From Escherichia coli (GTDB taxonomy: Bacteria; Pseudomonadota; Gammaproteobacteria; Enterobacterales; Enterobacteriaceae): a stretch of DNA of 53,474 nucleotides. Location of the stretch: the NCBI GenBank assembly GCA_017639185.1, contig GCA_017639185.1_4892.1; one strand, given 5' to 3'. Shown here one piece after another: positions 1-53,474 of the stretch (position 1 is the stretch's first letter; each line of letters opens with the position of its first letter). The position numbers and the translations under genes are program-made. The notes beneath the pieces were generated by a model. The model saw only the letters and a list, made by a program, of their open reading frames with translations, searched no databases and was not told the origin of the DNA.

Positions 1-901
1 GAATAAGTGCCAATAGTGCGTACGAAGTTATTGCAACCATTAACGGGAAGTTATCCCCGATAACGTAGATAAGTCGTTTTATATTTTCAATTGTATTGAA
101 TACAATTTCATCAAACTTTTTAAATGCTGCAGTAAGTGTGGTATCGTTAAGCACTGCAGTAAGTGACTTAACCATATTTATCGCGCCTTTGGTTACCTCG
201 TCCCATACTCGGGTCTGGGTAATCTTAGAGCGAGCAGCATACCAAATTGTACTCAGGTTAGTTAACTGCGCTTTGAGTGTCTGCGACACTTCGTGGGCAA
301 TTGGTTTTAAACGTTCGGCTTCTTGTTTGAGCGCGCTAGTCAGTATGTCGGCAGTGATTTGCTTCTGCCGCATCATATCCTGAAGCTCGCCAAGCTTCTT
401 ACCAGTGTAGCGGGACAATGCGCCCCAGATGTCAACACCGGCGTTAATGAATTGGTTCTTTTCCTGGCCCTGCAATGAACCCATCGCAGTTGCCTGGCCA
501 TACGCAACAATGGTACGCGCCAAATCACCGCCTGTTGCAGCAGTGATTGTTTTGAGCATTTGTAGTGAACCGTTTAACGGGTCAACGCCATACGCTTTAA
601 GTTTAGTAAAGCCGTCTAGTGCCTCTTGAAATGGTGTACCCATTTGCAAAGACATATCCATCAGCGTTTTCCACGTCGATTCGACGTCGTAGCCGAAGCC
701 TTTAATCTTGGCGGCGAGTACGTCAGCCTCTAACGCAGGCGCAAACATCCTACCGAGCGCACCAGCGGCACGCTCAGCAAGATTGATTACATCGCCGAGG
801 GTAATCACAAAACGGCGGGACAGCTGGTCGAAGAGGTCAAAGCCTGCGCTATCGGCTTTACTCTCAAGCGTTACCAGAAAGCTATCGATTATGGTCGCCA
901 T
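1..901 (-). CDS. tail tape measure protein, N-terminal part (runs off window start; joins 52714..53474 if circular)
   Basis: Hand translation from ATG at 899-901 gives MATIIDSFLVTLESK... with a TMP-type segment LKAYGVDPLNGSLQMLKTITAATGGDLARTIVAYGQATAMGSLQGQEKNQFINAGVD. GAGGA RBS upstream. Open to position 1. Not in the ORF track because its stop lies outside the window. Confidence 0.75.
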   Translation of the reverse strand, partial: MATIIDSFLVTLESKADSAGFDLFDQLSRRFVITLGDVINLAERAAGALGRMFAPALEADVLAAKIKGFGYDVESTWKTLMDMSLQMGTPFQEALDGFTKLKAYGVDPLNGSLQMLKTITAATGGDLARTIVAYGQATAMGSLQGQEKNQFINAGVDIWGALSRYTGKKLGELQDMMRQKQITADILTSALKQEAERLKPIAHEVSQTLKAQLTNLSTIWYAARSKITQTRVWDEVTKGAINMVKSLTAVLNDTTLTAAFKKFDEIVFNTIENIKRLIYVIGDNFPLMVAITSYALLALI

Positions 902-1492
902 GGATTTCCTCTAACTCGGCATAGTCCAGAATAGCAATATGCAGGTCGCACAAATCACACAAGCTGTAAGACGACTTTAATTCTGCAAGGGTCACATGAC
1001 CCTTGAGAATAGGAAGCCAAATGAACCAGTCAGTTTCTTGCGTCCCTGACTGTTGCTTGCGTTTTATTTCGTCAAGGGCGTGGCTAGACCCGCTAGACCT
1101 GACAGGCCATTCCCTTTGAAAAAATCCGCGAACTGATATACCAATCCCTCCTTAAGCACACCGAAGATGTGGCTACGATATGCGTTGAAGTGTTGGTCTT
1201 TACAGTCAGACAGCTTACGCGGTTTGCCATCAACTACAACAACAGTATTGCGGAAGATTAATTCCTCAATAGCTGTCATCTCGTCAGAACCTGCGTTCTC
1301 CAGAACAGCGTCCAACAGGACCAGCATTGCTTTCTTACCGTCCACTTTGCCGTCTTTACCCACAATGTCAGCGTTGCCAATGCCTTTGAACAGCTTACCT
1401 GCTTTTTTCAGGACTGTCCAGGCTTGCAGCGCGTTTGCGAGTGTCATGTTGTACGTTACGTCGTCGATGTCAAATGATTTGGGCTCAGTCAT
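882..1492 (-). CDS. tail assembly chaperone, candidate -1 frameshift-extended form (GT-like)
   Basis: The -1 frame is open from the slippery site T_TTT_TTC (plus 1118..1124) through the gap between chaperone stop (1064) and tape measure start (901), ending at TAG 882..884. Hand-translated extension: FFQREWPVRSSGSSHALDEIKRKQQSGTQETDWFIWLPILKGHVTLAELKSSYSLCDLCDLHIAILDYAELEEIHGDHNR. Confidence 0.4.
1064..1492 (-). CDS. tail assembly chaperone (G-like)
   Basis: 142-aa ORF between the tube-like gene and the tape measure gene, the conserved position of tail assembly chaperones. Carries a slippery heptamer near its 3' end. Confidence 0.55.
   Translation of the reverse strand: MTEPKSFDIDDVTYNMTLANALQAWTVLKKAGKLFKGIGNADIVGKDGKVDGKKAMLVLLDAVLENAGSDEMTAIEELIFRNTVVVVDGKPRKLSDCKDQHFNAYRSHIFGVLKEGLVYQFADFFKGNGLSGLAGLATPLTK
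1118..1124 (-). promoter_or_regulatory. candidate -1 ribosomal slippery heptamer (U UUU UUC)
   Basis: Minus-strand GAT TTT TTC in the chaperone zero frame matches X_XXY_YYZ. Sits 18 codons before the chaperone stop. Confidence 0.4.
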
Positions 1493-1510
1493 TTGTGCTT
1501 TCCTTTATTG

Positions 1511-1942
1511 TTACTGGTCAAAGCCTTCAGTCAACTGCATGCCACCTTGGTGGAACACAATAGAGAAGGTAGTCGGGTTATGGCCGTTACCACGAGTCCA
1601 CGGGGAACCGTCGGTAAAGTAACCTTTCTTACCCCATGCTAAATCCTGGTTTAGCAGGTCTTTAGCTTGCAGCACAAACGGGACGAATCCACGAATGTTG
1701 TTACGCTGCAGGTTGTATTGGTCGTTAAGCCATTTGGCGTCCGGACCACTTTGCTTAACTTTGATAGTCAGCTTAATGGCTTTGGACGGGTTCATAATCT
1801 GGATACCACCGCCATCAGCGCCTGCAAGATAGGTGGAAGCTGGGTCCACCCATTGCACGTCAATGACATCGGCACCGTCTGCCCAGTCGGACAGCTGAAC
1901 ACCATTCAGGCTCAACACGCATTCAGAAGAATCGATGATCAT
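1511..1942 (-). CDS. tail tube-like protein
   Basis: 143-aa ORF directly downstream of the sheath-like gene and upstream of the chaperone and tape measure. Call by synteny only. Confidence 0.5.
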   Translation of the reverse strand: MIIDSSECVLSLNGVQLSDWADGADVIDVQWVDPASTYLAGADGGGIQIMNPSKAIKLTIKVKQSGPDAKWLNDQYNLQRNNIRGFVPFVLQAKDLLNQDLAWGKKGYFTDGSPWTRGNGHNPTTFSIVFHQGGMQLTEGFDQ

Positions 1943-1953
1943 TGATCTGCTCC

Positions 1954-3093
1954 TTAGCGAGTGAAGTTAATCAGGATGTCGCTGGAGTGGATTGCACCAG
2001 CCAGCTTAATCGCGATTTGCATTACAACGGCCTGACGAGCTTCACGCTCATCCAGAGGCTGGTCATCTACGTCAGGGATGTAGATGTAGAAACCTGTTTC
2101 GAGTCGGTCACCATAAGACAGTGTACCAAACTCATCACCGTACCAGATACCAGGTGCAACCAAGCCGTTGTCGACAGCCTGCTGACAAGCAACAGCTGCA
2201 GCACCGGTAAGGCGCTCGTGACCTTTGTTCGTCTGCGGCACCTTCGTGGGTGACGTAGCGATTGAGTTGAAGACGTAAGTCTGAACTGCATTACAGAACC
2301 AGTCTAGACCGTGTACTTCATCCCAGAAGCGCGGCGGCTTGGACGTACCAAGGACAGTACCTTCTGCAAGCATAGCAAAGGTGCTGTAGTAGGTGTACCA
2401 GTTAATACCCAGCGCTTTACACTTGTTAGCTTCAGTAAGCGTTAAAGTGTTGTTCGGTGTAATACCAGGCTCTTGTTTGAACTTCATGGTAATCGTGGTG
2501 CGGTTACCAGAGAAGTTAACGGACAGAGCACGCGCCATAGCAGAGATGTCTGCGTAGTGCTGGTTGTTCTTATCATACTGAAGCCACATATTGTTGTAGC
2601 CTTTACCAGCCAGAACTTTAATCGGGTTGGAGTCGCTGTTTTCAATATGAGTTGCTTTAGTGGTAGTATAGCTGCAACGCTTTTTGTCGTAAGCAGCAAC
2701 AGTTGACGCCAGCAAATCGATGTCATCGTCAGACAGCTCACCAGTAGGTGGGAGCGGACGCAGAACATACCAGTCAGGGTACACATCGTTGAATGCTTTA
2801 ATAGCCGCATCCAGAGTAGAGGTGTTGTTCCATGAGGCGATAACTACTGAACGAGGACGCGGAGATTGTGCAAAGAAAATCTTCAACGCGCCAAGCACAA
2901 CTGAACCAGTACCCCAATAAGACTCGGCTTCAGAGTAGCTGCCGATTTCAACATAGTGTCCGTTTTCGCTGTCAGGAAAAGCAGTGCCAGGGTCCTGAGT
3001 TAAAAGAGCCAGCTTACCGAAGTCACCTTTGCTGATACCAGTTGGAGTGTTGTTCAGTTGAACGTTTACAATCTGGTTTACATTCAACGGCAT
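1954..3093 (-). CDS. tail sheath-like protein
   Basis: 379-aa ORF in the sheath position (before tube, chaperone, tape measure), with baseplate-like genes further downstream. Call by synteny and size. Confidence 0.5.
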   Translation of the reverse strand: MPLNVNQIVNVQLNNTPTGISKGDFGKLALLTQDPGTAFPDSENGHYVEIGSYSEAESYWGTGSVVLGALKIFFAQSPRPRSVVIASWNNTSTLDAAIKAFNDVYPDWYVLRPLPPTGELSDDDIDLLASTVAAYDKKRCSYTTTKATHIENSDSNPIKVLAGKGYNNMWLQYDKNNQHYADISAMARALSVNFSGNRTTITMKFKQEPGITPNNTLTLTEANKCKALGINWYTYYSTFAMLAEGTVLGTSKPPRFWDEVHGLDWFCNAVQTYVFNSIATSPTKVPQTNKGHERLTGAAAVACQQAVDNGLVAPGIWYGDEFGTLSYGDRLETGFYIYIPDVDDQPLDEREARQAVVMQIAIKLAGAIHSSDILINFTR

Positions 3094-3179: not shown

Positions 3180-5312
3180 TTATGCTGCATCGACGGACTG
3201 ATAAGAGCTGTCCGACGCTGTAGCGTTTCTCACAGTTACTGTGGCACCAATACGACATCCACCACTACCAACACCAGTAATAACACCAGCATTACTTACA
3301 GTAGCGACAGTATCGTCTGTAGTTGTATACTGAATGCTATAGCCTGCGTCTGTCTTAGCGTATTCAGGTCTAACAGTTACAACGAGCTGCTGCGTGTTAC
3401 CAACAGTAAGTGCAGGCAGCGAATCCGTAGTAACAGAAAGCTCAGACACGTAAGGAGATGTTGTACCAGAAGCAGCAACACCGTTCATTACAACGTTAGC
3501 AGTAATAGTTGCTGAACCTTCAGACTTAGCAGTCATCAAGCCATTTGCATCTACACTAATGATAGAGTCATCTGACGAGCTATAAGTAACAGTAACGCTC
3601 TTAGAGTCCGACGGATAGATCTCAACATCAAGTTGTTTGGTGTTACCCACAAGCCATTCAGCATACTGCGGATAGACCTGTACCCTCTCAGAAATTTGTG
3701 CCCAAGCAGCTGCGCTAATGTCAGCGCCATTACTAGTTGCGTAAATCCAGATATTACATCCGCCCTCAGCAACACCAGTTACAACGCCAGACGAATCAAC
3801 AGTTGCAATAGCTGGGTTAGCAGATTCGTAACGAATATCAGTTAGATCCGCGTCAGACGGGCTAACAGTGTAAGTGAACTGCTGAGTACCACCGACTGGA
3901 ATACCACCAAGACCATCTGGTGTAATAACAGCCACCTCTGTGCAAGTAGCTACAAACGAAGCAACAAGTCCACCGTCGTCTGTTGTAACTGTAATAGTCG
4001 AAGTTCCAGGAGATTGACCGTATATAACTCCGTTAGTGTCAACAGTAACAGCGTCTGGGTTTGAACTATTGTAGCTAACTTTTTTGTTGGTTGCGTTGTC
4101 AGGTGTTATAACAATTTTAGTCTGCACCTGATGGCCGGCGCTTACTTTAGTCGGAGAGTCAGGAGCCCATGCAACATCCGTAACTGCGATGCTGGGGTCT
4201 GTAACTTTAACCTCGATTCTATCAGTAAAGTTCCCGTCGTTAGTGATAACAGTAACATCAATTAAGCCTGCAGCGTTAGCGGTTACCAAACCAGCTTCAG
4301 TCACAGACGCAACTTCTGATACAGGAGCACTCCATACAACAGATGGGTCAGTAGCATTTTCAGGAGTCACAGTGGCATGTAGCTGAAGAGTGTCACCAAC
4401 TTCCATGGAAGCTGTATCGCCTTCGTCAATACTTACACCGGTAACATTTACAGCAGGTACCCTGACTATAATGTCAAGCGTGTCAGTCTTATCACCGTCA
4501 TTAGTCTTAACAGTAACAGTGGCATTACCAGCTATAATACCCGTAACATTTCCGTCAGTATCCACAGTTGCTACATCAGGCTCACTGCTTTCGTACGTCA
4601 CTGTTTTGTCAGTGGCGTCTTCTGGCGATATACGAATACTAGTCCCAGCTGTGCTTCCGATATTAACGTTAAGAGGCGACTGAGTAAGAAACTCAACTCC
4701 TGTAACGTGTACAACAGGCGGAATAACAGTTACAGTACAGCTATCGAATATAGAGCTGTCAACACCGTACTGTACGTTTACAGTTGTTTCACCATCTCCA
4801 ATGGCAGTGACAAGCCCGTTGTCGCTAACGACAGCAACAGACTCATCATCTGAAATCCAGTAGAAATCAAGATTATCTGCATTAGCAGGTAAATAGGTGT
4901 ATGTCAGGCGTTGAGTCTTGCCCTCTTCAAGCGTCACACTTGTGGGAGACACTGTAACAGATTCAACAAGGATAGGTGCCCGAGCAATGTTAAACTTTGC
5001 CCGTACTGTATAACCGCCGTCAACAGACGTACCAGTCACGTATGCAACACCTTCCGCCAGTGGCTTCACAAATCCGAGCTCATCAACAGTGATAACGTCC
5101 GGGTCGCTAGATTTCCATGCCATACCACGCTCAGTAGCGTTGGTTGGAATGTAACGCACAACTAGCTGAACAGGGTCATCACCCGCGACGATTGAGTACT
5201 CGTAGTTGGAAAGCATTATACCTTCCAGCGGAACATTGGGGGTAAAACCTTTACCCCCGTTGCTCTTACTGAACTGGACGTCGACAACCTCATTAAGTGG
5301 AAGCGACATCAA
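3180..5312 (-). CDS. virion protein with about 7-8 tandem bacterial Ig-like (Big_2-type) domains
   Basis: 710 aa with a recurring unit ending in VATVD..G.VTGV..G.ATVTV (for example VATVDTDGNVTGIIAGNATVTV, IATVDSSGVVTGVAEGG, VAVVSDNGLVTAIGDGETTVNV). Confidence 0.65.
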   Translation of the reverse strand: MMSLPLNEVVDVQFSKSNGGKGFTPNVPLEGIMLSNYEYSIVAGDDPVQLVVRYIPTNATERGMAWKSSDPDVITVDELGFVKPLAEGVAYVTGTSVDGGYTVRAKFNIARAPILVESVTVSPTSVTLEEGKTQRLTYTYLPANADNLDFYWISDDESVAVVSDNGLVTAIGDGETTVNVQYGVDSSIFDSCTVTVIPPVVHVTGVEFLTQSPLNVNIGSTAGTSIRISPEDATDKTVTYESSEPDVATVDTDGNVTGIIAGNATVTVKTNDGDKTDTLDIIVRVPAVNVTGVSIDEGDTASMEVGDTLQLHATVTPENATDPSVVWSAPVSEVASVTEAGLVTANAAGLIDVTVITNDGNFTDRIEVKVTDPSIAVTDVAWAPDSPTKVSAGHQVQTKIVITPDNATNKKVSYNSSNPDAVTVDTNGVIYGQSPGTSTITVTTDDGGLVASFVATCTEVAVITPDGLGGIPVGGTQQFTYTVSPSDADLTDIRYESANPAIATVDSSGVVTGVAEGGCNIWIYATSNGADISAAAWAQISERVQVYPQYAEWLVGNTKQLDVEIYPSDSKSVTVTYSSSDDSIISVDANGLMTAKSEGSATITANVVMNGVAASGTTSPYVSELSVTTDSLPALTVGNTQQLVVTVRPEYAKTDAGYSIQYTTTDDTVATVSNAGVITGVGSGGCRIGATVTVRNATASDSSYQSVDAA

Positions 5313-5320
5313 TCAGCTCC

Positions 5321-5959
5321 TTACTCAGCAGTAACAGTTACTGACGCGGTGTCAGTGAAGCTGCCATCAGCTGTTTTGACAGTGATGGTGACGACGCCAG
5401 CTGCTTTACCAGTCACCAGACCGGTAGCGCTAACAGTAGCTTTAGCCGTGTCATTGGACTCGTAGGTAACAGCTTTGTTAGTAGCGCCAGCAGGCAGCAC
5501 AGTTGCAGTCAGCTGTACAGTAGAGCCTACTACAACGCTGGGCGACTTAGGCGCTAACGTAACACCAGTGACGGCTACAGGCGGAGCAGTTACCGTAATT
5601 GCTACGGTATCGGTTTTGGCAGGGTCAAGCTTGGATTTAGCAGTAATAGTTGCTGAACCTACTTTGATACCCTGAACACGACCTGAACCATCAACAGTGG
5701 CATTAGCAGGTGTATCGCTTTCCCACAATACGGTGACGTCATCTGCGTCTGCCGGGGCTACTGCTGCTGTCAGAGTAGTAAACTCACCAACAGCAATTGA
5801 CTTAGCTTTAGGGGTAACAGTTACACCGGTAACTGGGGTTGGAATGAATTTTCCGTTCTCATCAAGCTTGGTCGGCTTGGCTAACGGGAACTGAGTAACC
5901 GACTCTTGACGCAGGTCTGCGTCTTTAACAGGACGGTTGGCTGTAGTACGATTTGCCAT
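5321..5959 (-). CDS. virion protein with two Ig-like (Big_2-type) domains
   Basis: 212 aa. Repeats ATVDGSGRVQGIKVGSATITA and ATVSATGLVTGKAAGVVTITV. Ala/Thr/Val-rich. Confidence 0.6.
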   Translation of the reverse strand: MANRTTANRPVKDADLRQESVTQFPLAKPTKLDENGKFIPTPVTGVTVTPKAKSIAVGEFTTLTAAVAPADADDVTVLWESDTPANATVDGSGRVQGIKVGSATITAKSKLDPAKTDTVAITVTAPPVAVTGVTLAPKSPSVVVGSTVQLTATVLPAGATNKAVTYESNDTAKATVSATGLVTGKAAGVVTITVKTADGSFTDTASVTVTAE

Positions 5960-10435: not shown

Positions 10436-10923
10436 TATAGCCTCCAGTTTCTGCCAACCTTGTAACCTATCGAATCATACAACTGCATAGATTCTCTAAG
10501 CGTACCAGGCCCGCGTTTGCGTTCTTCTGTCAGCTCGGTGTTAGGAGGTGGCACGTCACTGTCCATTCTGTCGTGAACAGCGTCAACAAGCATACGGCCT
10601 ATTTTGTCGTTAAGCTCATGTGCAGTCATGCTTCCTCTGAGAACAGCAGGCACATTATCACGGAAAGCTTTGTTTATTGCCTGTCGGCCTTTACCCCTGC
10701 CACCAACAGCACTACGGAGAAAGCTTCGTTCTGGCAGACCGTTAAGACCGTACTCATGCACCATTGCTAGCTCGGCGTTTGTTATACGGTCCCTAGGATT
10801 TATACGTCTGTTGTGCTCTGGATGAACACCTACTGATACGCCTTGACCTTCAAACGACTTAAAGGCACGGTAGGTGAACTCGAACTTTTGTTTGTCACGA
10901 CGTTCAAGGCGTATACGAATCAT
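10435..10923 (-). CDS. HK97 gp10-like tail-component/head-tail joining protein
   Basis: Likely starts at MIRIRLERRD (ATG overlapping the upstream stop at 10923). C-terminal segment NTELTEERKRGPGTLRESMQ resembles the gp10 family by eye. Confidence 0.45.
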   Translation of the reverse strand: MIRIRLERRDKQKFEFTYRAFKSFEGQGVSVGVHPEHNRRINPRDRITNAELAMVHEYGLNGLPERSFLRSAVGGRGKGRQAINKAFRDNVPAVLRGSMTAHELNDKIGRMLVDAVHDRMDSDVPPPNTELTEERKRGPGTLRESMQLYDSIGYKVGRNWRL

Positions 10924-11423
10924 TATACTCTCCGCGCTCTCAGTGATGCACCCACAAGGTGCTTGAGCATGACCTTGACGTCTGAAGTCCAAAGGTCAGT
11001 TGCACCGGTAACACCTGACTTGGAGTCGAAGTATTCAATCTCCAGGTTACCAACTTTCTTACGGCGCAAAGCCTGGTCACCGCGTACACCTTCCTCGCCG
11101 TCGTAGCTCAATACGCTAGCCAGCATATAAAGCTGTGCCAGCTTAACTTCTCGCGGAATTACAGACTCCGCGATGTCAACATTGCATGCACCGAGGCCTG
11201 TACGCGGCCAGGCCATGTTCTGCGTTTTGCTGACCTTACGACCTAGCCAGTTAAACTGGTTATCAAGTCGAATAGCTGCTTTGGCAGCCTGGTAGTACGG
11301 GTCAGTTCCTGGTTGAATGAGAATACCTTCGTTAGTGATAAATTCATCAACTTCTGCAGCGCTAACATACGAGTTAGCACCCGGAACGATTGAACCGTCT
11401 TCCACAACAAGTGTGTATGCCAT
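10923..11423 (-). CDS. head-tail connector (gp6-like) protein
   Basis: 166 aa, first gene after the capsid terminator. N-terminal pattern NSYVSAAEVDEFI...AAKAAIRLDNQ resembles connector/adaptor proteins by eye. Confidence 0.4.
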   Translation of the reverse strand: MAYTLVVEDGSIVPGANSYVSAAEVDEFITNEGILIQPGTDPYYQAAKAAIRLDNQFNWLGRKVSKTQNMAWPRTGLGACNVDIAESVIPREVKLAQLYMLASVLSYDGEEGVRGDQALRRKKVGNLEIEYFDSKSGVTGATDLWTSDVKVMLKHLVGASLRARRV

Positions 11424-11477
11424 ATAAAGCCTCCAGCAAGTTTAGTCCGATTATATACCAGAACTTTATACGTGTAA

Positions 11478-11510
11478 ATAAAAAAGGCGAGCTCGTCAGC
11501 TCGCCTTTTG
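11478..11510. terminator. bidirectional intrinsic terminator downstream of the major capsid gene
   Basis: A-tract, then stem GGCGAGC (11486..11492), loop TCGTCA, stem GCTCGCC (11499..11505), then T-tract. Confidence 0.7.
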
Positions 11511-11527
11511 TTAGTCCCGTTTGTGGG

Positions 11528-12505
11528 TTAGATTGCAGACTTAGCCAGCAACATAACACCAGCGGTGTCTTTGTTGGAAGTCGCAACTTTAGACCAGGAC
11601 GCCTGAGCAGCCAGGTCTTCATCAGTCGGAGACTGACCAGCTTTGTGACCGACCCAGCTGTAGCCTTTCAGCGACACGTTGAAGTCGTATTCACCCTGCA
11701 TCTGACGCAGGATGTTTTCACCACCGGTTTGCTCGGAGGTAACCATGTCGTACAGGCCGCCGACCTGAACGATTGCAGCAGACGGGGTCAGACCCAGAGT
11801 GCGGTACTTAGCGGAAGCACCGGCGCCATCAACCAGAGCCGGGATGTCGGAAACGACATAACGACGACCCAGGAAGTCTTTGTACACGTTCAGGTCACCA
11901 ATCTGGAACAGGTGTTCTGTGTTGTTGATAGCCTGGTCGATGAGGGAGTGGAACGCAGTAGAGTGCATGATGTACGCACGAATCTGCTGAGAACGGTCAC
12001 CCATCTTCGCGTTGACTTTGTTCAGGTTCTGCATGGTGATGTTTGCAGCAGCACCGGAGCCTGAAGTTACGTCCAGAACAACATCAGCGTTTGCGCCGAT
12101 AGCAGCTACCAGACATGCAGCAGTGGTGTTCAGGTAGTCCTGGAACATCGCAGCAGAAGCCTGTGCAGCAACAACAGCTGCTGGTTCAGTATCACCTGCA
12201 CCGATGCGACGCATCATAGTACCGGTAATGTTCAGAGGACCAACACGGCCGTCGATTTTAACAGAGCGGTCCAGAATCTGGCCCAGAGTCTGTGCATCAA
12301 CTTTGTTGGTGCCTGCGTAAGCATTACGGCGAGTAGCGATGCCGTCAACCAGCTGCCACATTGCCTGCTCAACGTAATCACCAATTACGTACTGGTTACC
12401 CAGGATAAGGGTACCTGCAGAAGCTTCGTTGAACTTCTGTACGTCCTGGTCGACCAGTTCGGTGGCGGTAGAACGTACTTGTTCGTTAAAAATATACAGT
12501 GACAT
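11528..12505 (-). CDS. major capsid protein
   Basis: 325-aa ORF directly after the scaffold gene and followed by a strong terminator. Confidence 0.65.
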   Translation of the reverse strand: MSLYIFNEQVRSTATELVDQDVQKFNEASAGTLILGNQYVIGDYVEQAMWQLVDGIATRRNAYAGTNKVDAQTLGQILDRSVKIDGRVGPLNITGTMMRRIGAGDTEPAAVVAAQASAAMFQDYLNTTAACLVAAIGANADVVLDVTSGSGAAANITMQNLNKVNAKMGDRSQQIRAYIMHSTAFHSLIDQAINNTEHLFQIGDLNVYKDFLGRRYVVSDIPALVDGAGASAKYRTLGLTPSAAIVQVGGLYDMVTSEQTGGENILRQMQGEYDFNVSLKGYSWVGHKAGQSPTDEDLAAQASWSKVATSNKDTAGVMLLAKSAI

Positions 12506-23300: not shown

Positions 23301-23482
23301 TTGGCTTAATCCTGGCAACATGTGTGGCTACTCATGATTGTAGTTACAAAATTGTTGAATCCAACCCTGAATGGACTACCGTTGAACAATGTGCCGCCGA
23401 TAGTCCATACACCTTACTGAATCTTGGTATTATCCCTGCCAAAAATCAGCGTGTTATTTGTGACGAGCTGAAACAAGATTAA
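23297..23482 (+). CDS. small protein with N-terminal hydrophobic segment
   Basis: GTG start overlapping the upstream stop. N-terminus IGLILATCVATHDCS. Confidence 0.35.
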   Translation: MIGLILATCVATHDCSYKIVESNPEWTTVEQCAADSPYTLLNLGIIPAKNQRVICDELKQD

Positions 23483-23910
23483 TTGACGTGATATTGAGTG
23501 CCGGGCGCAACGTAATAGTTGTAGACCCGGCAAAATTGTTCCCATGTTAATTCTACTAGACCCACAAAGAGGCGATTTGATGCCTCGTTAAAAGTCGTGC
23601 CACTTGGAAAACAGTCAATCACATCAGCCTTATTCATCACCACGGTAGGCTGTTTTCTTGGTAGTTCGTATATCAGCACTGGCATCTTGTTCTGAGCCTT
23701 TGCCGATGCCGCACACTGTCTCCACCATGTTCCGATAGACTTGGTATTGTGCTTCTTCAGTTCAACACTGAAAAACGGCACACCCAGCAAGTCATCCCCG
23801 CCATTAATAGACTGTTGAAGATTGCGCTCAACAGTTAATCCGAACGAGCTATTAAATTTTTTAGCCATTTTACGCTCAAAGTTCTGCCCCTTGGCTCTAA
23901 TATTTACCAT
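23479..23910 (-). CDS. PD-(D/E)XK nuclease, Hjc-like Holliday-junction resolvase candidate
   Basis: KGQNFERK...GGDDLL...FSVELKK pattern (E, D, ExK spacing) read by eye. Stop codon shares bases with the convergent plus-strand stop at 23479..23482. Confidence 0.35.
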   Translation of the reverse strand: MVNIRAKGQNFERKMAKKFNSSFGLTVERNLQQSINGGDDLLGVPFFSVELKKHNTKSIGTWWRQCAASAKAQNKMPVLIYELPRKQPTVVMNKADVIDCFPSGTTFNEASNRLFVGLVELTWEQFCRVYNYYVAPGTQYHVN

Positions 23911-24410
23911 GCACTGTTTCCTTTTAAAATCTGGACTACGCGGTCCAAAGAGTTACCATTTTCTACTTGTTTTTTCCATACTGTCATAATTCTTGACTTA
24001 AGCCTTGCTCTTCCGTGGCAGTCAGCTGTAGCATACGCACGGAGTAAGTCTATTTCATCAGACAGTAGATCCAGCGCTGGTTGAAGCTCTGGTGCAACAT
24101 AATAACCATTCCCACGAATGGTTGGGAATACTTCTTCGTATGCCCAGCGCTGAAATGCTTTAGCTGATTCAAGATGTGAACCGAATATAGCCTGATAAAT
24201 ACCAGGTTCAGTTACCCATACGGCTCCTTTGTCATCAGTAATTTTATAATCGCTGTCTAACCTTTTATAAAGTTTTTTCGAGTGACTGTAGCCTAGCGCT
24301 TTAGATAAATCGCTTCCTTTAACAACAATGAGGGGAACCATTTTGGTTCCTCTATTAATTGATGAAAATGTGATATTTTTACCTTCAAATACTTTTACAA
24401 TTGGATTCAT
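23904..24410 (-). CDS. Bro-N domain protein (antirepressor-like)
   Basis: N-terminal FEGKNITFSSINRG...VKGSDLSKALGYSHSKKLYKRLDSDYK matches the Bro-N pattern. Start uncertain (24410, 24425 or 24473). Confidence 0.5.
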   Translation of the reverse strand: MNPIVKVFEGKNITFSSINRGTKMVPLIVVKGSDLSKALGYSHSKKLYKRLDSDYKITDDKGAVWVTEPGIYQAIFGSHLESAKAFQRWAYEEVFPTIRGNGYYVAPELQPALDLLSDEIDLLRAYATADCHGRARLKSRIMTVWKKQVENGNSLDRVVQILKGNSAW

Positions 24411-24671
24411 AGTTGCACAACTCATCTGTTGAATAATAAATATATTATAACACACACTAACATACAATAACATAGTAAATATCACCGAAGCTTGCCACGC
24501 CTGGCTTTAGACATGCCTACGAATTATTTATCAGTCCGGTTTTTTATTATTTTTCGCCAGCGTAAATTTTTTTTCATCCGGTTCTGATATTAATAAAGAG
24601 ATAAACCGGATCATACATATAGACGCCTCTAAGTAGCTGTTTTTATTACTTCTAATATAATTAATAATATA

Positions 24672-51821: not shown

Positions 51822-52717
51822 CAGAATATGCCTCGTAAGTTAAAGCCAAACATGTCACCGAGTGTTACACCAAAACCGCGGTTATCGTTTACACGTTTCT
51901 CGCTAATCGGTGTAGTTGTGTTTATGTCCTTCTTACTGGTGGCATCACCCTGTCCTTGTGCACGTCCGCTTTTCTTAGTGCCGTTATTAGCAGGGCGGCC
52001 TGTCGACTTAGCGGCTACAGCGTTTGTAACTACAATCGGCACTTCGATGACTTCACGGAACGTAAGGGTAAACGTAGCTGAACCGTCTTTCTCCTGTACA
52101 ACACGAACAGACTTCAAAAGCATATTCGTATACTTGAAGATACCAGTGTCAACGTCACAGTAGATAACGTTTTTCTGTAAATCCAGCAAGGTACGGTATA
52201 CCTGTTCAATCCTCATATTGTCCGAAGACTTAAGCTGTTCAGCTATACTAAAGTCAGGAAGCCATGGAACTAAAGAGCGTGAAATGGTAGCGTCTAAACC
52301 GCCCCAGTCTATAAAGGATGCTAGCTTGTTAACAGCAAAGTCCCTTGTTCCTTCAAGCGCAGTAGACACTACCTGTGGAAGCTGAATATCATCCAAGAAA
52401 TCCATAGACCGTAGACCGGTTACATCCTTAATTGTTGACTCTTGAATTGACTCGTCGATATAACCAACTACCACGCCAGTTACAGTAATAACTTTTGGTT
52501 GTACTGCAGCATGGTCCGAAGCCTTAGCCCCGGACTCAAGTTCATTGTCAGCGATGTCAAGGTCAGACTGATGTTCCTCATTGGTGACAGCATCCATCTT
52601 AATGCCTCCGCAGTTGCGGAAGCGTAAGGTGGTCGTACCGTCGCCCATGAGTCTGTCGCGGGCTTCTTGGTACAAGTCGTTGGCAGCATCAGTAATTCCA
52701 GCAAAGATGTCACTCAT
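51821..52717 (-). CDS. tail protein downstream of tape measure (distal tail / DNA-circulation-like)
   Basis: 298-aa ORF immediately after the tape measure stop. Confidence 0.35.
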   Translation of the reverse strand: MSDIFAGITDAANDLYQEARDRLMGDGTTTLRFRNCGGIKMDAVTNEEHQSDLDIADNELESGAKASDHAAVQPKVITVTGVVVGYIDESIQESTIKDVTGLRSMDFLDDIQLPQVVSTALEGTRDFAVNKLASFIDWGGLDATISRSLVPWLPDFSIAEQLKSSDNMRIEQVYRTLLDLQKNVIYCDVDTGIFKYTNMLLKSVRVVQEKDGSATFTLTFREVIEVPIVVTNAVAAKSTGRPANNGTKKSGRAQGQGDATSKKDINTTTPISEKRVNDNRGFGVTLGDMFGFNLRGIF

Positions 52718-53474
52718 TGTGTTACCGCCGTTTTGTTGTTAGCCCTTACAGTAGCATTCTCTTTCTGCGCCTGTTTGACCTGGTCATTGACCTCACGACC
52801 TACTTCTTGTGGGTTCTGTACACCGGTAATAGTAGCGTCAACTTTAACGCTATTATCCTGGTGGATAACAGTCGCGTTCTGCTGCTGGTTTTGCTTAGCA
52901 GTATTTATCGCCGACTGCATAGCCTGACCGCCAGCTGTCATCTCCCCTGTAATAGGGTTGAAGTTACGCATTGACCAGTTGAGTGCCCTACTCCAGAAGC
53001 TTCCGCCCTGTTCAGTGGTAGGCGACACAGCATTGACAGTAGCCTCCGCACCTGTCACAAGTTTGTTACCAGCAAAGCCCAGTGTAGAATCTAGCTTACC
53101 AAACAACGCCATCAGGAACTTACCGCCAGGCAGCTGGTAAAGTGCTTCAGACAACCACAGCTTTATTTGCTCTATGCCTTGCTTAACTTCGCCGAGGAAA
53201 CCTTGCCACCAGTTACCGAGCCGGTTCCATAAGCGGCCGTCAAATATTGACAGAATAAAGTCTGCAATAACTACGATATACTGCTTGACAATTCCCCATG
53301 CAGCAACAACGTCTTTTGACCACTTAACAACTGTCTCACGTCCTGCCAGAGCATCATCGAGGTCAGCGAGTACAGCAATAACTGCGCCGATAGCAAGTAC
53401 AATCCACGTAAGCGGGTTCATAAGTATTTTGGCAGCTAAACCCACAAAGGCATTGCCGACCTTAGTCAGCACGG
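52714..53474 (-). CDS. tail tape measure protein, C-terminal part (5' end beyond window end; joins 1..901 if circular)
   Basis: Frame open to the last base of the window. Window-end sequence VLTKVGNAFVGLAAKILMNPLTWIVLAIGAVIAVL continues the hydrophobic segment that ends the 1..901 translation. Confidence 0.7.
   Translation of the reverse strand, partial: VLTKVGNAFVGLAAKILMNPLTWIVLAIGAVIAVLADLDDALAGRETVVKWSKDVVAAWGIVKQYIVVIADFILSIFDGRLWNRLGNWWQGFLGEVKQGIEQIKLWLSEALYQLPGGKFLMALFGKLDSTLGFAGNKLVTGAEATVNAVSPTTEQGGSFWSRALNWSMRNFNPITGEMTAGGQAMQSAINTAKQNQQQNATVIHQDNSVKVDATITGVQNPQEVGREVNDQVKQAQKENATVRANNKTAVTQ

What the first reader, a model, noticed from the sequence alone, without database searches (positions are those of the whole stretch)
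882..1492. Candidate -1 programmed frameshift (G/GT-like) in the tail assembly chaperone
A canonical X_XXY_YYZ heptamer (T_TTT_TTC, plus 1118..1124) lies in the chaperone zero frame. The -1 frame from that point is open through the otherwise gene-free 162-nt gap to a TAG at 882..884, just past the tape measure ATG. This would add about 80 residues to the chaperone.
Basis: partly seen in the sequence, partly recalled or inferred. Interest (0 to 1): 0.55.

Follow-up and report, generated by a model that had tools for sequence, protein, structure and literature searches.

The report
Tail chaperone -1 frameshift, real but ordinary
This Salmonella/E. coli phage makes a short and a long version of its tail assembly chaperone by letting some ribosomes slip back one base on a TTTTTTC run; this is the well-known lambda G/GT trick, missing from the eight database records of this phage group whose feature tables I read.

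Summary
On the minus strand, the tail assembly chaperone gene (1492..1064, Pfam Phage_TAC_9) carries T_TTT_TTC (1124..1118) in its zero frame. From there the -1 frame is open for 80 codons, across the 162-nt "gap", to TAG 884..882, 20 nt into the tape measure gene.

Comparative evidence makes the recoding reading very strong:
- About 55 related phage and prophage loci, down to 37% protein identity, all keep TTTTTT(C/T) in the same register.
- All but three damaged or truncated loci keep a 72-85 codon -1 frame that ends just past the next gene's start.
- The extension has a conserved motif (DWFIWLPI...LxEL..Y.L.DL...H) that usually has no start codon upstream of it.
- In the gap, dN/dS is 0.07-0.25 in the -1 frame in the ten pairs where it could be computed, against about 1 or more in the other two frames.
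- Wobble positions inside the heptamer are invariant, while neighbouring codons vary synonymously.

No convincing stimulatory RNA structure was found in this phage. The window is a Rosemountvirus (BP63-like myovirus). None of the eight GenBank feature tables I read annotates the slippage. This is an unannotated member of the classic G/GT class, so interest is low.

The parts
1064..1492 (-). Tail assembly chaperone gene, short product 'G' (142 aa, TAA at 1066..1064)
1118..1124 (-). Slippery heptamer T_TTT_TTC in the zero frame (third base of Asp123, then Phe124, Phe125)
   Evidence: Sequence and register check. TTTTTT(C/T) is invariant in 20 of 20 distinct sequence contexts from about 55 related loci, while neighbouring codons vary synonymously.
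882..1118 (-). -1 frame extension 'T' (78 new residues QREWPV...GDHNR plus TAG 884..882). Base 1118 is read twice. The full GT product is complement(join(882..1118,1118..1492)), 203 aa.
   Evidence: Translation. There is no ATG/GTG/TTG in this frame until a GTG 43 codons past the heptamer, downstream of the conserved DWFIWLPI motif. dN/dS in the gap is 0.07-0.25 in this frame where computable, against about 1-10 in the other frames. The extension aligns across relatives.
1064..1124 (-). Dual-coded overlap. It encodes the C-terminal tail of G (KGNGLSGLAGLATPLTK, predicted disordered) and the first ~20 residues of T.
   Evidence: lower synonymous divergence than in the gap. In the AF2 model, pLDDT is below 50 for residues 127-129 and 131-142, and the last helix ends at residue 126.
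1074..1116 (-). Possible weak hairpin starting 1 nt after the heptamer (AAGGG/CCCUU plus UGGC/GCCA). Unproven as a stimulator.
   Evidence: MFE -15.4 kcal/mol, z -0.67 against shuffles. In six enterobacterial relatives 6 of 9 pairs never vary and there is no excess covariation.
1..901 (-). 5' part of the tape measure gene (ATG 901..899, SD-like GAGGA at 911..907). The T frame stops 20 nt inside it.
   Evidence: Pfam TMP_3 E 3.6e-21. phrog_29251 tail length tape measure protein E 2.4e-203. Same start as annotated in BP63 and yarpen.
1511..1942 (-). Tail tube-like gene immediately upstream (context)
   Evidence: phrog_280 E 5e-30. Weak KPP10_Orf10 match, below Pfam's cut-off. Annotated as putative tube protein in phage S144.
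1954..3093 (-). Tail sheath gene, DUF3383 type (context)
   Evidence: Pfam DUF3383 E 1e-72. phrog_205 tail sheath E 9e-94.

Best explanation
This is a lambda G/GT-type programmed -1 ribosomal frameshift in the tail assembly chaperone of a Rosemountvirus (BP63-like myovirus).

Most ribosomes read GAU-UUU-UUC-AAA and terminate at 1066..1064, giving the 142-aa chaperone G. A minority slip back one base while the two tRNA-Phe occupy UUU (P site) and UUC (A site). Both re-pair with UUU, and decoding continues with CAA (1118..1116). This gives a 203-aa GT protein that shares residues 1-125 with G and carries a 78-residue T domain.

By analogy with lambda, the G parts coat the tape measure protein and the T domain recruits the tube protein. 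The fixed low GT:G ratio would be set by slippage efficiency.

Shown here: the signal, the open frame, its conservation, and selection on the -1 frame. Inferred: that slippage is ribosomal, its efficiency, and the roles of the two products.
For: (1) Anatomy: heptamer in register, 80-codon -1 frame with no start codon of its own, ending 20 nt past the tape measure ATG.

(3) Conservation: the same heptamer at the same (D/G)FF position in Loughboroughvirus (80% nt), Erwinia/E. coli/Salmonella phages (65-67% nt), 46 IMG/VR loci and 9 bacterial genomes (Aggregatibacter, Haemophilus, Avibacterium, Seminibacterium, Pragia, Mycoavidus) at 37-45% aa. A 72-85 codon -1 frame ending just past the next gene's ATG is kept in all but three of these loci.

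(4) The codon before FF always ends in T: GAT 16 contexts, GGT 4, never GAC or GGC. The first Phe codon is always TTT. Nearby Gln, Phe and Ala codons vary freely.

(5) In the gap, dN/dS is 0.07-0.25 in the -1 frame in the ten pairs that could be computed (the other five were saturated at synonymous sites). It is about 1-10 in the other two frames.

(6) The conserved DWF(I/V)(W/F).P(I/V) motif lies upstream of any start codon in the window and in most lineages. The exception is a TTG six codons past the heptamer in the Mycoavidus-type lineage, inside the overlap with G.

(7) U_UU.U_UU.C and U_UU.U_UU.U belong to the H_HH.U_UU.Y class, among the most efficient -1 motifs in E. coli (PMC4066793).

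(8) The structured part of G ends at the slip site.

(9) No promoter, terminator or Rfam family explains the gap.
Against: There is no direct detection of a GT product. The only proteomics found, on the relative fHy-Eco03, reports the short ORF at protein level only.

No significant or covarying downstream stimulator exists in this clade. The internal AAGGAGG lies 22 nt upstream and is not conserved.

Sequence alone cannot separate ribosomal slippage from RNA polymerase slippage on the T6 run, because both give the same protein.
Confidence: 0.87

Rival explanations
1. The same GT protein is made, but by transcriptional slippage. RNA polymerase adds one extra U on the T6 run, so a fraction of mRNAs carry the T frame in phase.
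For: The site is a homopolymer run, T6 here and T7 in several relatives. Selection for T at the wobble position lengthens the run as well as completing the heptamer. No RNA stimulator was found. The paper PMC4066793 notes that such runs can produce indels in mRNA.
Against: From my own knowledge of the field, not tested here: productive bacterial transcriptional slippage normally needs runs of about 8-9 or more. T6C and T7 match a heptamer class measured as efficient for ribosomal -1 shifting in E. coli. The register is that of a tandem-slippage site in every relative.
Confidence: 0.08
2. The gap holds an independent small gene, as annotated in some records (BP63 gp35, 37 aa from a GTG; SOI901 gp59; KE25 CDS0030; these cluster in phrog_4364). 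No recoding occurs.
For: Those annotations exist. The T segment weakly matches phrog_4364, E 5e-4. In the window a GTG lies 43 codons after the heptamer, preceded by AAGGG.
Against: The start codon is not conserved: S144 has ATT there, and fHy-Eco03 has no start until codon 64. The most conserved motif, TDWFIWLPI, lies upstream of every candidate start and shows synonymous-only changes. The frame is open back to the heptamer in every lineage.
Confidence: 0.03
3. This is coincidence: the gap is non-coding spacer and the heptamer and open frame are chance features.
For: Heptamers followed by long -1 frames occur elsewhere in the window.
Against: The two other cases examined run into ordinary downstream genes with their own ATG. 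The gap shows strong purifying selection in exactly the -1 frame. The arrangement persists to 37% identity.
Confidence: 0.02

Closest known systems
Phage lambda gpG/gpGT (Levin 1993; Xu, Hendrix and Duda 2004, 2013, 2014, as summarised in PMC5009743)
   Same: Two overlapping reading frames lie between the major tail/tube gene and the tape measure gene. [quoted passage not shown] The -1 extension has no start of its own and ends at the start of the tape measure gene. No strong RNA stimulator is needed. The fold of the G part is TAC-like.
   Different: The heptamer is U_UUU_UUC (tRNA-Phe) instead of G_GGA_AAG (tRNA-Gly/Lys). There is no detectable sequence similarity to lambda G or T. The host phage has a contractile tail with a DUF3383 sheath. 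The product ratio and the binding partners are untested here.
Phage P2 E / E+E' tail chaperone frameshift (contractile-tailed phage)
   Same: A -1 shift in a myovirus chaperone located just before the tape measure gene. The review notes that P2-type efficiency is 2-3 fold higher than lambda's. As far as I recall (not checked here), P2 also uses a T-rich heptamer, T_TTT_TTG.
   Different: It belongs to a different TAC sequence family, and the last base of the heptamer differs. I did not compare sequences.
TAC-N/TAC-NC -1 frameshift proposed for Pakpunavirus/Vandenendeviridae and Andersonviridae (phage Adele paper, PMC12846349)
   Same: These are myoviruses with the same kind of tail module. A downstream fragment is routinely mis-annotated as a separate hypothetical protein. 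An invariant poly-T (GTTTTT) motif sits at the 3' end of TAC-N. The -1 frame is open in all genomes.
   Different: They are different phage families, and the paper does not cover Rosemountvirus or Loughboroughvirus. Here the full 7-nt X_XXY_YYZ motif is conserved, and selection on the -1 frame was measured.

Membership tests
G/GT-type tail assembly chaperone with programmed -1 frameshift | The gene lies between the tail tube/major tail gene and the tape measure gene | tested here: met
   The minus-strand order is sheath 3093..1954, tube 1942..1511, TAC 1492..1064, TMP from 901. Relatives have the same order.
G/GT-type tail assembly chaperone with programmed -1 frameshift | The first ORF belongs to a recognised TAC sequence family | tested here: met
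   PF10876 Phage_TAC_9: 115 bits against a cut-off of 25, E 3.7e-33. PF21822 Phage_TAC_15: 61 bits against a cut-off of 22.
G/GT-type tail assembly chaperone with programmed -1 frameshift | TAC fold | tested here: met
   [not shown]
G/GT-type tail assembly chaperone with programmed -1 frameshift | X_XXY_YYZ slippery heptamer in the zero frame near the 3' end | tested here: met
   T_TTT_TTC at 1124..1118, 19 codons before the G stop.
G/GT-type tail assembly chaperone with programmed -1 frameshift | The overlapping -1 ORF lacks its own start and ends at or just inside the tape measure gene | tested here: met
   The frame is open 1151..885 and stops at TAG 884..882. The first start codon is a GTG 43 codons after the heptamer.
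G/GT-type tail assembly chaperone with programmed -1 frameshift | The arrangement is conserved among diverged relatives, and the -1 frame is under purifying selection | tested here: met
   About 55 loci down to 37% aa identity. dN/dS is 0.07-0.25 in the -1 frame against about 1 or more in the other frames. Three exceptions look damaged or truncated: L022, L042, L059.
G/GT-type tail assembly chaperone with programmed -1 frameshift | Two products are made in a fixed ratio and both are needed for tail assembly | not testable with these tools
   This needs proteomics and genetics. The fHy-Eco03 LC-MS/MS data give only protein-level detection of the short ORF.
G/GT-type tail assembly chaperone with programmed -1 frameshift | The G part binds the tape measure protein and the T part binds the tube protein | not testable with these tools
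   Inferred from lambda (PMC5009743).
-1 PRF signals with an RNA stimulator (dnaX/IS3 type) | A stable stem-loop or pseudoknot a few nt downstream, supported by covariation | tested here: inconclusive
   The window hairpin is -15.4 kcal/mol with z -0.67 and starts 1 nt after the heptamer. There is no covariation signal in 6 relatives. Strong hairpins occur only in the distant L034 (z -3.5) and L036 (z -3.0) lineages.
-1 PRF signals with an RNA stimulator (dnaX/IS3 type) | An upstream Shine-Dalgarno-like stimulator at about 10-14 nt | tested here: not met
   AAGGAGG at 1153..1147 is 22 nt upstream and is absent from the SOI901, fHy-Eco03 and other lineages. The spacing rule is from my own knowledge.
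Programmed transcriptional slippage | A long homopolymer run (usually 8-9 or more) independent of reading register | tested here: not met
   The run is T6 in the window and at most T7 in relatives, always in the heptamer register. The threshold is from my own knowledge. The mechanism is not excluded experimentally.

The most novel reading that the evidence does not exclude
The long isoform might be produced not by ribosomal tandem slippage but by RNA polymerase stuttering on the invariant T6/T7 run, or by a mix of both. The hairpins that start only 1-4 nt after the run in several lineages would then act on the polymerase rather than on the ribosome. That would make this widespread Phage_TAC_9 family a case of transcriptional recoding in tail assembly.
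Probability: 0.07. Interest if true: 0.4.

Novelty: new member of a known kind. Interest (0 to 1): 0.2.

Why it matters
The value is mainly for annotation. Eight GenBank feature tables of this phage group were read, and none joins the two frames. Several call a spurious 37-45 aa "hypothetical protein" in the gap, or leave the gap empty. The product names listed for the other matching records (68 records match in all) point the same way, but those tables were not read.

Correcting this gives the proper 203-aa GT chaperone for a group of phages that are being developed against Salmonella and E. coli. It also shows that the whole Phage_TAC_9 family, including Pasteurellaceae, Pragia and Mycoavidus prophages, uses one invariant U_UUU_UUY site.

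It adds no new biology beyond the established G/GT paradigm.

Tried and rejected
- **Downstream stimulator.** I folded 58 and 105 nt after the heptamer and ten lineage representatives, and counted pairs on six relatives. Nothing significant emerged for this clade.
- **Upstream SD stimulator.** AAGGAGG at 1153..1147 is too far away (22 nt) and is not conserved.
- **Rfam, promoter and terminator scans of 700..1700.** Nothing found in the gap.
- **Sequence search of the PDB with GT.** No meaningful hit.
- **Literature.** No paper in the held library links Rosemountvirus to frameshifting, and BP63 did not co-occur with frameshift or tail-chaperone terms in any relevant paper listed. The two papers that mention phage S144 together with a tail assembly chaperone were listed but not read.
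- **fHy-Eco03 proteomics supplement.** It has no T-region peptides and reports only protein-level rows.
- **Structure prediction of the GT fusion.** The T domain fold is therefore untested.
- **Wide protein search with GT.** It returned only short-form (139-150 aa) chaperones and no fused entries.
- **Other heptamers with long -1 frames.** Of the four others in the window, the two examined (23928, 11485) run into ordinary downstream genes. The other two were not examined.

Full report
**What is there**

All genes in this part of the window run on the minus strand. Reading that strand, the order is:
- a DUF3383-type tail sheath gene (3093..1954; Pfam E 1e-72, phrog_205 tail sheath)
- a tube-like gene (1942..1511; phrog_280)
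- a 142-codon ORF (1492..1064)
- a 162-nt stretch with no listed ORF
- the tape measure gene, starting at ATG 901..899 (Pfam TMP_3 E 3.6e-21; phrog_29251 E 2.4e-203)

The 142-aa protein is a tail assembly chaperone by sequence. It matches PF10876 Phage_TAC_9 at 115 bits against a cut-off of 25, E 3.7e-33.

**Checking the observation**

The zero-frame codons are GAT(1126-1124) TTT(1123-1121) TTC(1120-1118), encoding D123-F124-F125. TTTTTTC at 1124..1118 is therefore an X_XXY_YYZ heptamer in the right register.

The -1 frame from 1124 gives FFQREWPVRSSGSSHALDEIKRKQQSGTQETDWFIWLPILKGHVTLAELKSSYSLCDLCDLHIAILDYAELEEIHGDHNR and stops at TAG 884..882, 20 nt inside the tape measure gene. That frame opens only at 1151. 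It has no ATG, GTG or TTG until a GTG 43 codons after the heptamer.

A slip would give a 203-aa protein with residues 1-125 shared and 78 residues new.

On chance alone the coincidence is suggestive but not decisive. In-frame heptamers occur at 31 per 23,571 ORF codons in this window. Four others are also followed by long -1 frames. The two I examined simply run into downstream genes with their own ATG. The other two were not examined.

**What the window is**

It is a Rosemountvirus (BP63-like myovirus). It is 99.9% identical over 3.2 kb to Salmonella phage zoltan and 99.7% to Escherichia phage JEP7.

I read eight GenBank feature tables: BP63, yarpen, S144, PK3, SOI901, fHy-Eco03, vB_SE1_KM and KE25. 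None joins the two frames. Three call a 37-45 aa "hypothetical protein" in the gap, and the others leave it empty.

A wide protein search with the fused sequence returned only short-form chaperones.

**Comparative test**

The same TTTTTTC sits at the same (D/G)FF position, followed by a -1 frame of 78-81 codons ending just after the tape measure ATG, in:
- Loughboroughvirus phages (80% nt identity)
- Erwinia phage SOI901, fHy-Eco03, vB_SE1_KM and KE25 (65-67% nt)

The same holds, with TTTTTTC or TTTTTTT and 72-85 codons, in:
- 46 IMG/VR loci at 37-58% protein identity
- prophages of Aggregatibacter, Haemophilus, Avibacterium, Seminibacterium, Pragia and Mycoavidus
- cultured phages such as Aaphi23, where the fused protein matches in two pieces covering both the G and T parts; I did not check the heptamer there

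Three loci are exceptions and look damaged or truncated: L022 has an indel in a G run, L042 has an early stop, and L059 loses the frame close to the end of its contig.

After the slip site the zero-frame tails diverge freely. The -1 products instead share DWF(I/V)(W/F).P(I/V)......L.EL...Y.L.DL...H.

In the window and in most lineages no start codon precedes that motif. The exception is a TTG six codons past the heptamer in the Mycoavidus-type lineage, inside the overlap with G.

**Selection**

Nei-Gojobori estimates on the gap segment for six enterobacterial relatives give dN/dS 0.07-0.25 in the -1 frame. That covers ten of fifteen pairs, because the other five were saturated at synonymous sites. 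The two alternative frames give about 0.8-10. The alignment was guided by the -1 frame protein, which biases slightly towards it, but indels are few.

At nucleotide level, across 20 distinct contexts:
- The codon before FF is always GAT (16) or GGT (4), never a C-, A- or G-ending synonym, even in GC-rich lineages.
- The first Phe codon is always TTT.
- The adjacent Gln (CAG 8, CAA 12), Phe (TTC 11, TTT 5) and Ala (4 codons) vary.

This is selection on the RNA motif itself.

**Mechanism**

The best-supported reading is tandem -1 slippage of the two tRNA-Phe on U_UUU_UUC. U_UU.U_UU.C and U_UU.U_UU.U fall in the H_HH.U_UU.Y class, which Sharma et al. measured as among the most efficient -1 motifs in E. 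coli. Both are shifty without a stimulator (PMC4066793).

The AF2 model places the end of the last helix of G at residue 126 and predicts a disordered zero-frame tail. This fits a design in which the slip site sits at a domain boundary.

By analogy with lambda (PMC5009743), G and the G part of GT would bind the tape measure protein, and the T domain would recruit the tube protein. That step is inferred, not shown.

**Stimulators**

A hairpin can be drawn 1 nt after the heptamer (1116..1074, -15.4 kcal/mol). It is no more stable than shuffled sequence (z -0.67). It shows no covariation in six relatives, and most of its pairs are invariant within a dual-coded stretch.

Two distant lineages have clearly stable hairpins: L034/Pragia type at z -3.5 and L036/Mycoavidus type at z -3.0.

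An AAGGAGG at 1153..1147 is 22 nt upstream and is not conserved. Rfam, promoter and terminator scans of the region are empty in the gap.

**Rivals**

- An independent small gene in the gap is contradicted by the non-conserved start and by the conserved, selected sequence upstream of it.
- Chance is contradicted.
- Transcriptional slippage on the T6 run would give the same protein and cannot be excluded from sequence. The run is short for that mechanism and the motif matches a measured ribosomal class, so I give it under 10%.

**Comparison and novelty**

This is the classic G/GT recoding, described as widely conserved among long-tailed dsDNA phages. The same kind of mis-annotated TAC-N/TAC-NC frameshift was recently argued for Pakpunavirus-like myoviruses (PMC12846349).

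I found no paper in the held library linking Rosemountvirus to frameshifting. None of the feature tables I read marks the frameshift. It is therefore a new, unannotated member of a well-known kind. That is useful for annotation but unsurprising to a specialist.

No product has been detected. The fHy-Eco03 virion proteomics lists only the short ORF, at protein level.

Noticed in passing
window 1..901 and 52714..53472 (minus strand): The window starts inside the tape measure gene. An ORF running to the far end of the window (53472..52714, 252 aa) has the length expected for the missing part: 300 + about 253 aa against 553 aa in relatives. The window therefore looks like a complete, circularly permuted roughly 53-kb genome.
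   Followed up: partly
L034/L067 (Pragia fontium prophage type) and L036/L069/L070 (Mycoavidus type), just after their heptamers: These distant relatives have clearly stable hairpins starting 3-10 nt after TTTTTTC (-25 to -26 kcal/mol, z -3.0 to -3.5). The window's clade does not. Stimulator use may differ between lineages of the same chaperone family.
   Followed up: partly
[not shown]
   Followed up: no
GenBank PP583539.1 and MAG contig JAEWER010000021.1 = L062: A record named 'Listeria phage 220426122051' is 96.8% identical to this Salmonella/E. coli phage. A contig binned as a 'Bacillota bacterium' MAG carries a 98% identical chaperone locus. Both labels look like host mis-assignment or contamination.
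   Followed up: no
Escherichia phage fHy-Eco03 gp34 (L006 709..1167): The chaperone homologue was reported as particle-associated by LC-MS/MS (3 unique peptides, 24% coverage), although lambda G and GT are absent from virions. However, 48 of 81 proteins passed that filter, so the preparation was probably not stringent.
   Followed up: partly
window 23904..24485 / 23479..23910 and 11374..11622 / 10923..11423 (minus strand): Two other in-frame heptamers (TTTAAAA at 23928, TTTTTTA at 11485) are followed by long open -1 frames. Those frames belong to downstream genes with their own ATG, so these are ordinary gene overlaps. The 11374..11622 ORF may itself be spurious.
   Followed up: partly
L022, L042 (IMG/VR prophage-derived loci): Two relatives have a broken T frame: one base missing from a G run in L022, and a premature TAG in L042. 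These could be decaying prophages or sequencing errors at homopolymers.
   Followed up: no
window 3180..5312 and 5321..5959 (minus strand): Two adjacent proteins upstream of the sheath gene are built of repeated, similar segments. In relatives the 710-aa one is annotated as 'major tail protein' or Ig-like domain protein. An Ig-like repeat protein labelled 'major tail protein' beside a sheath gene looks like a doubtful annotation.
   Followed up: no
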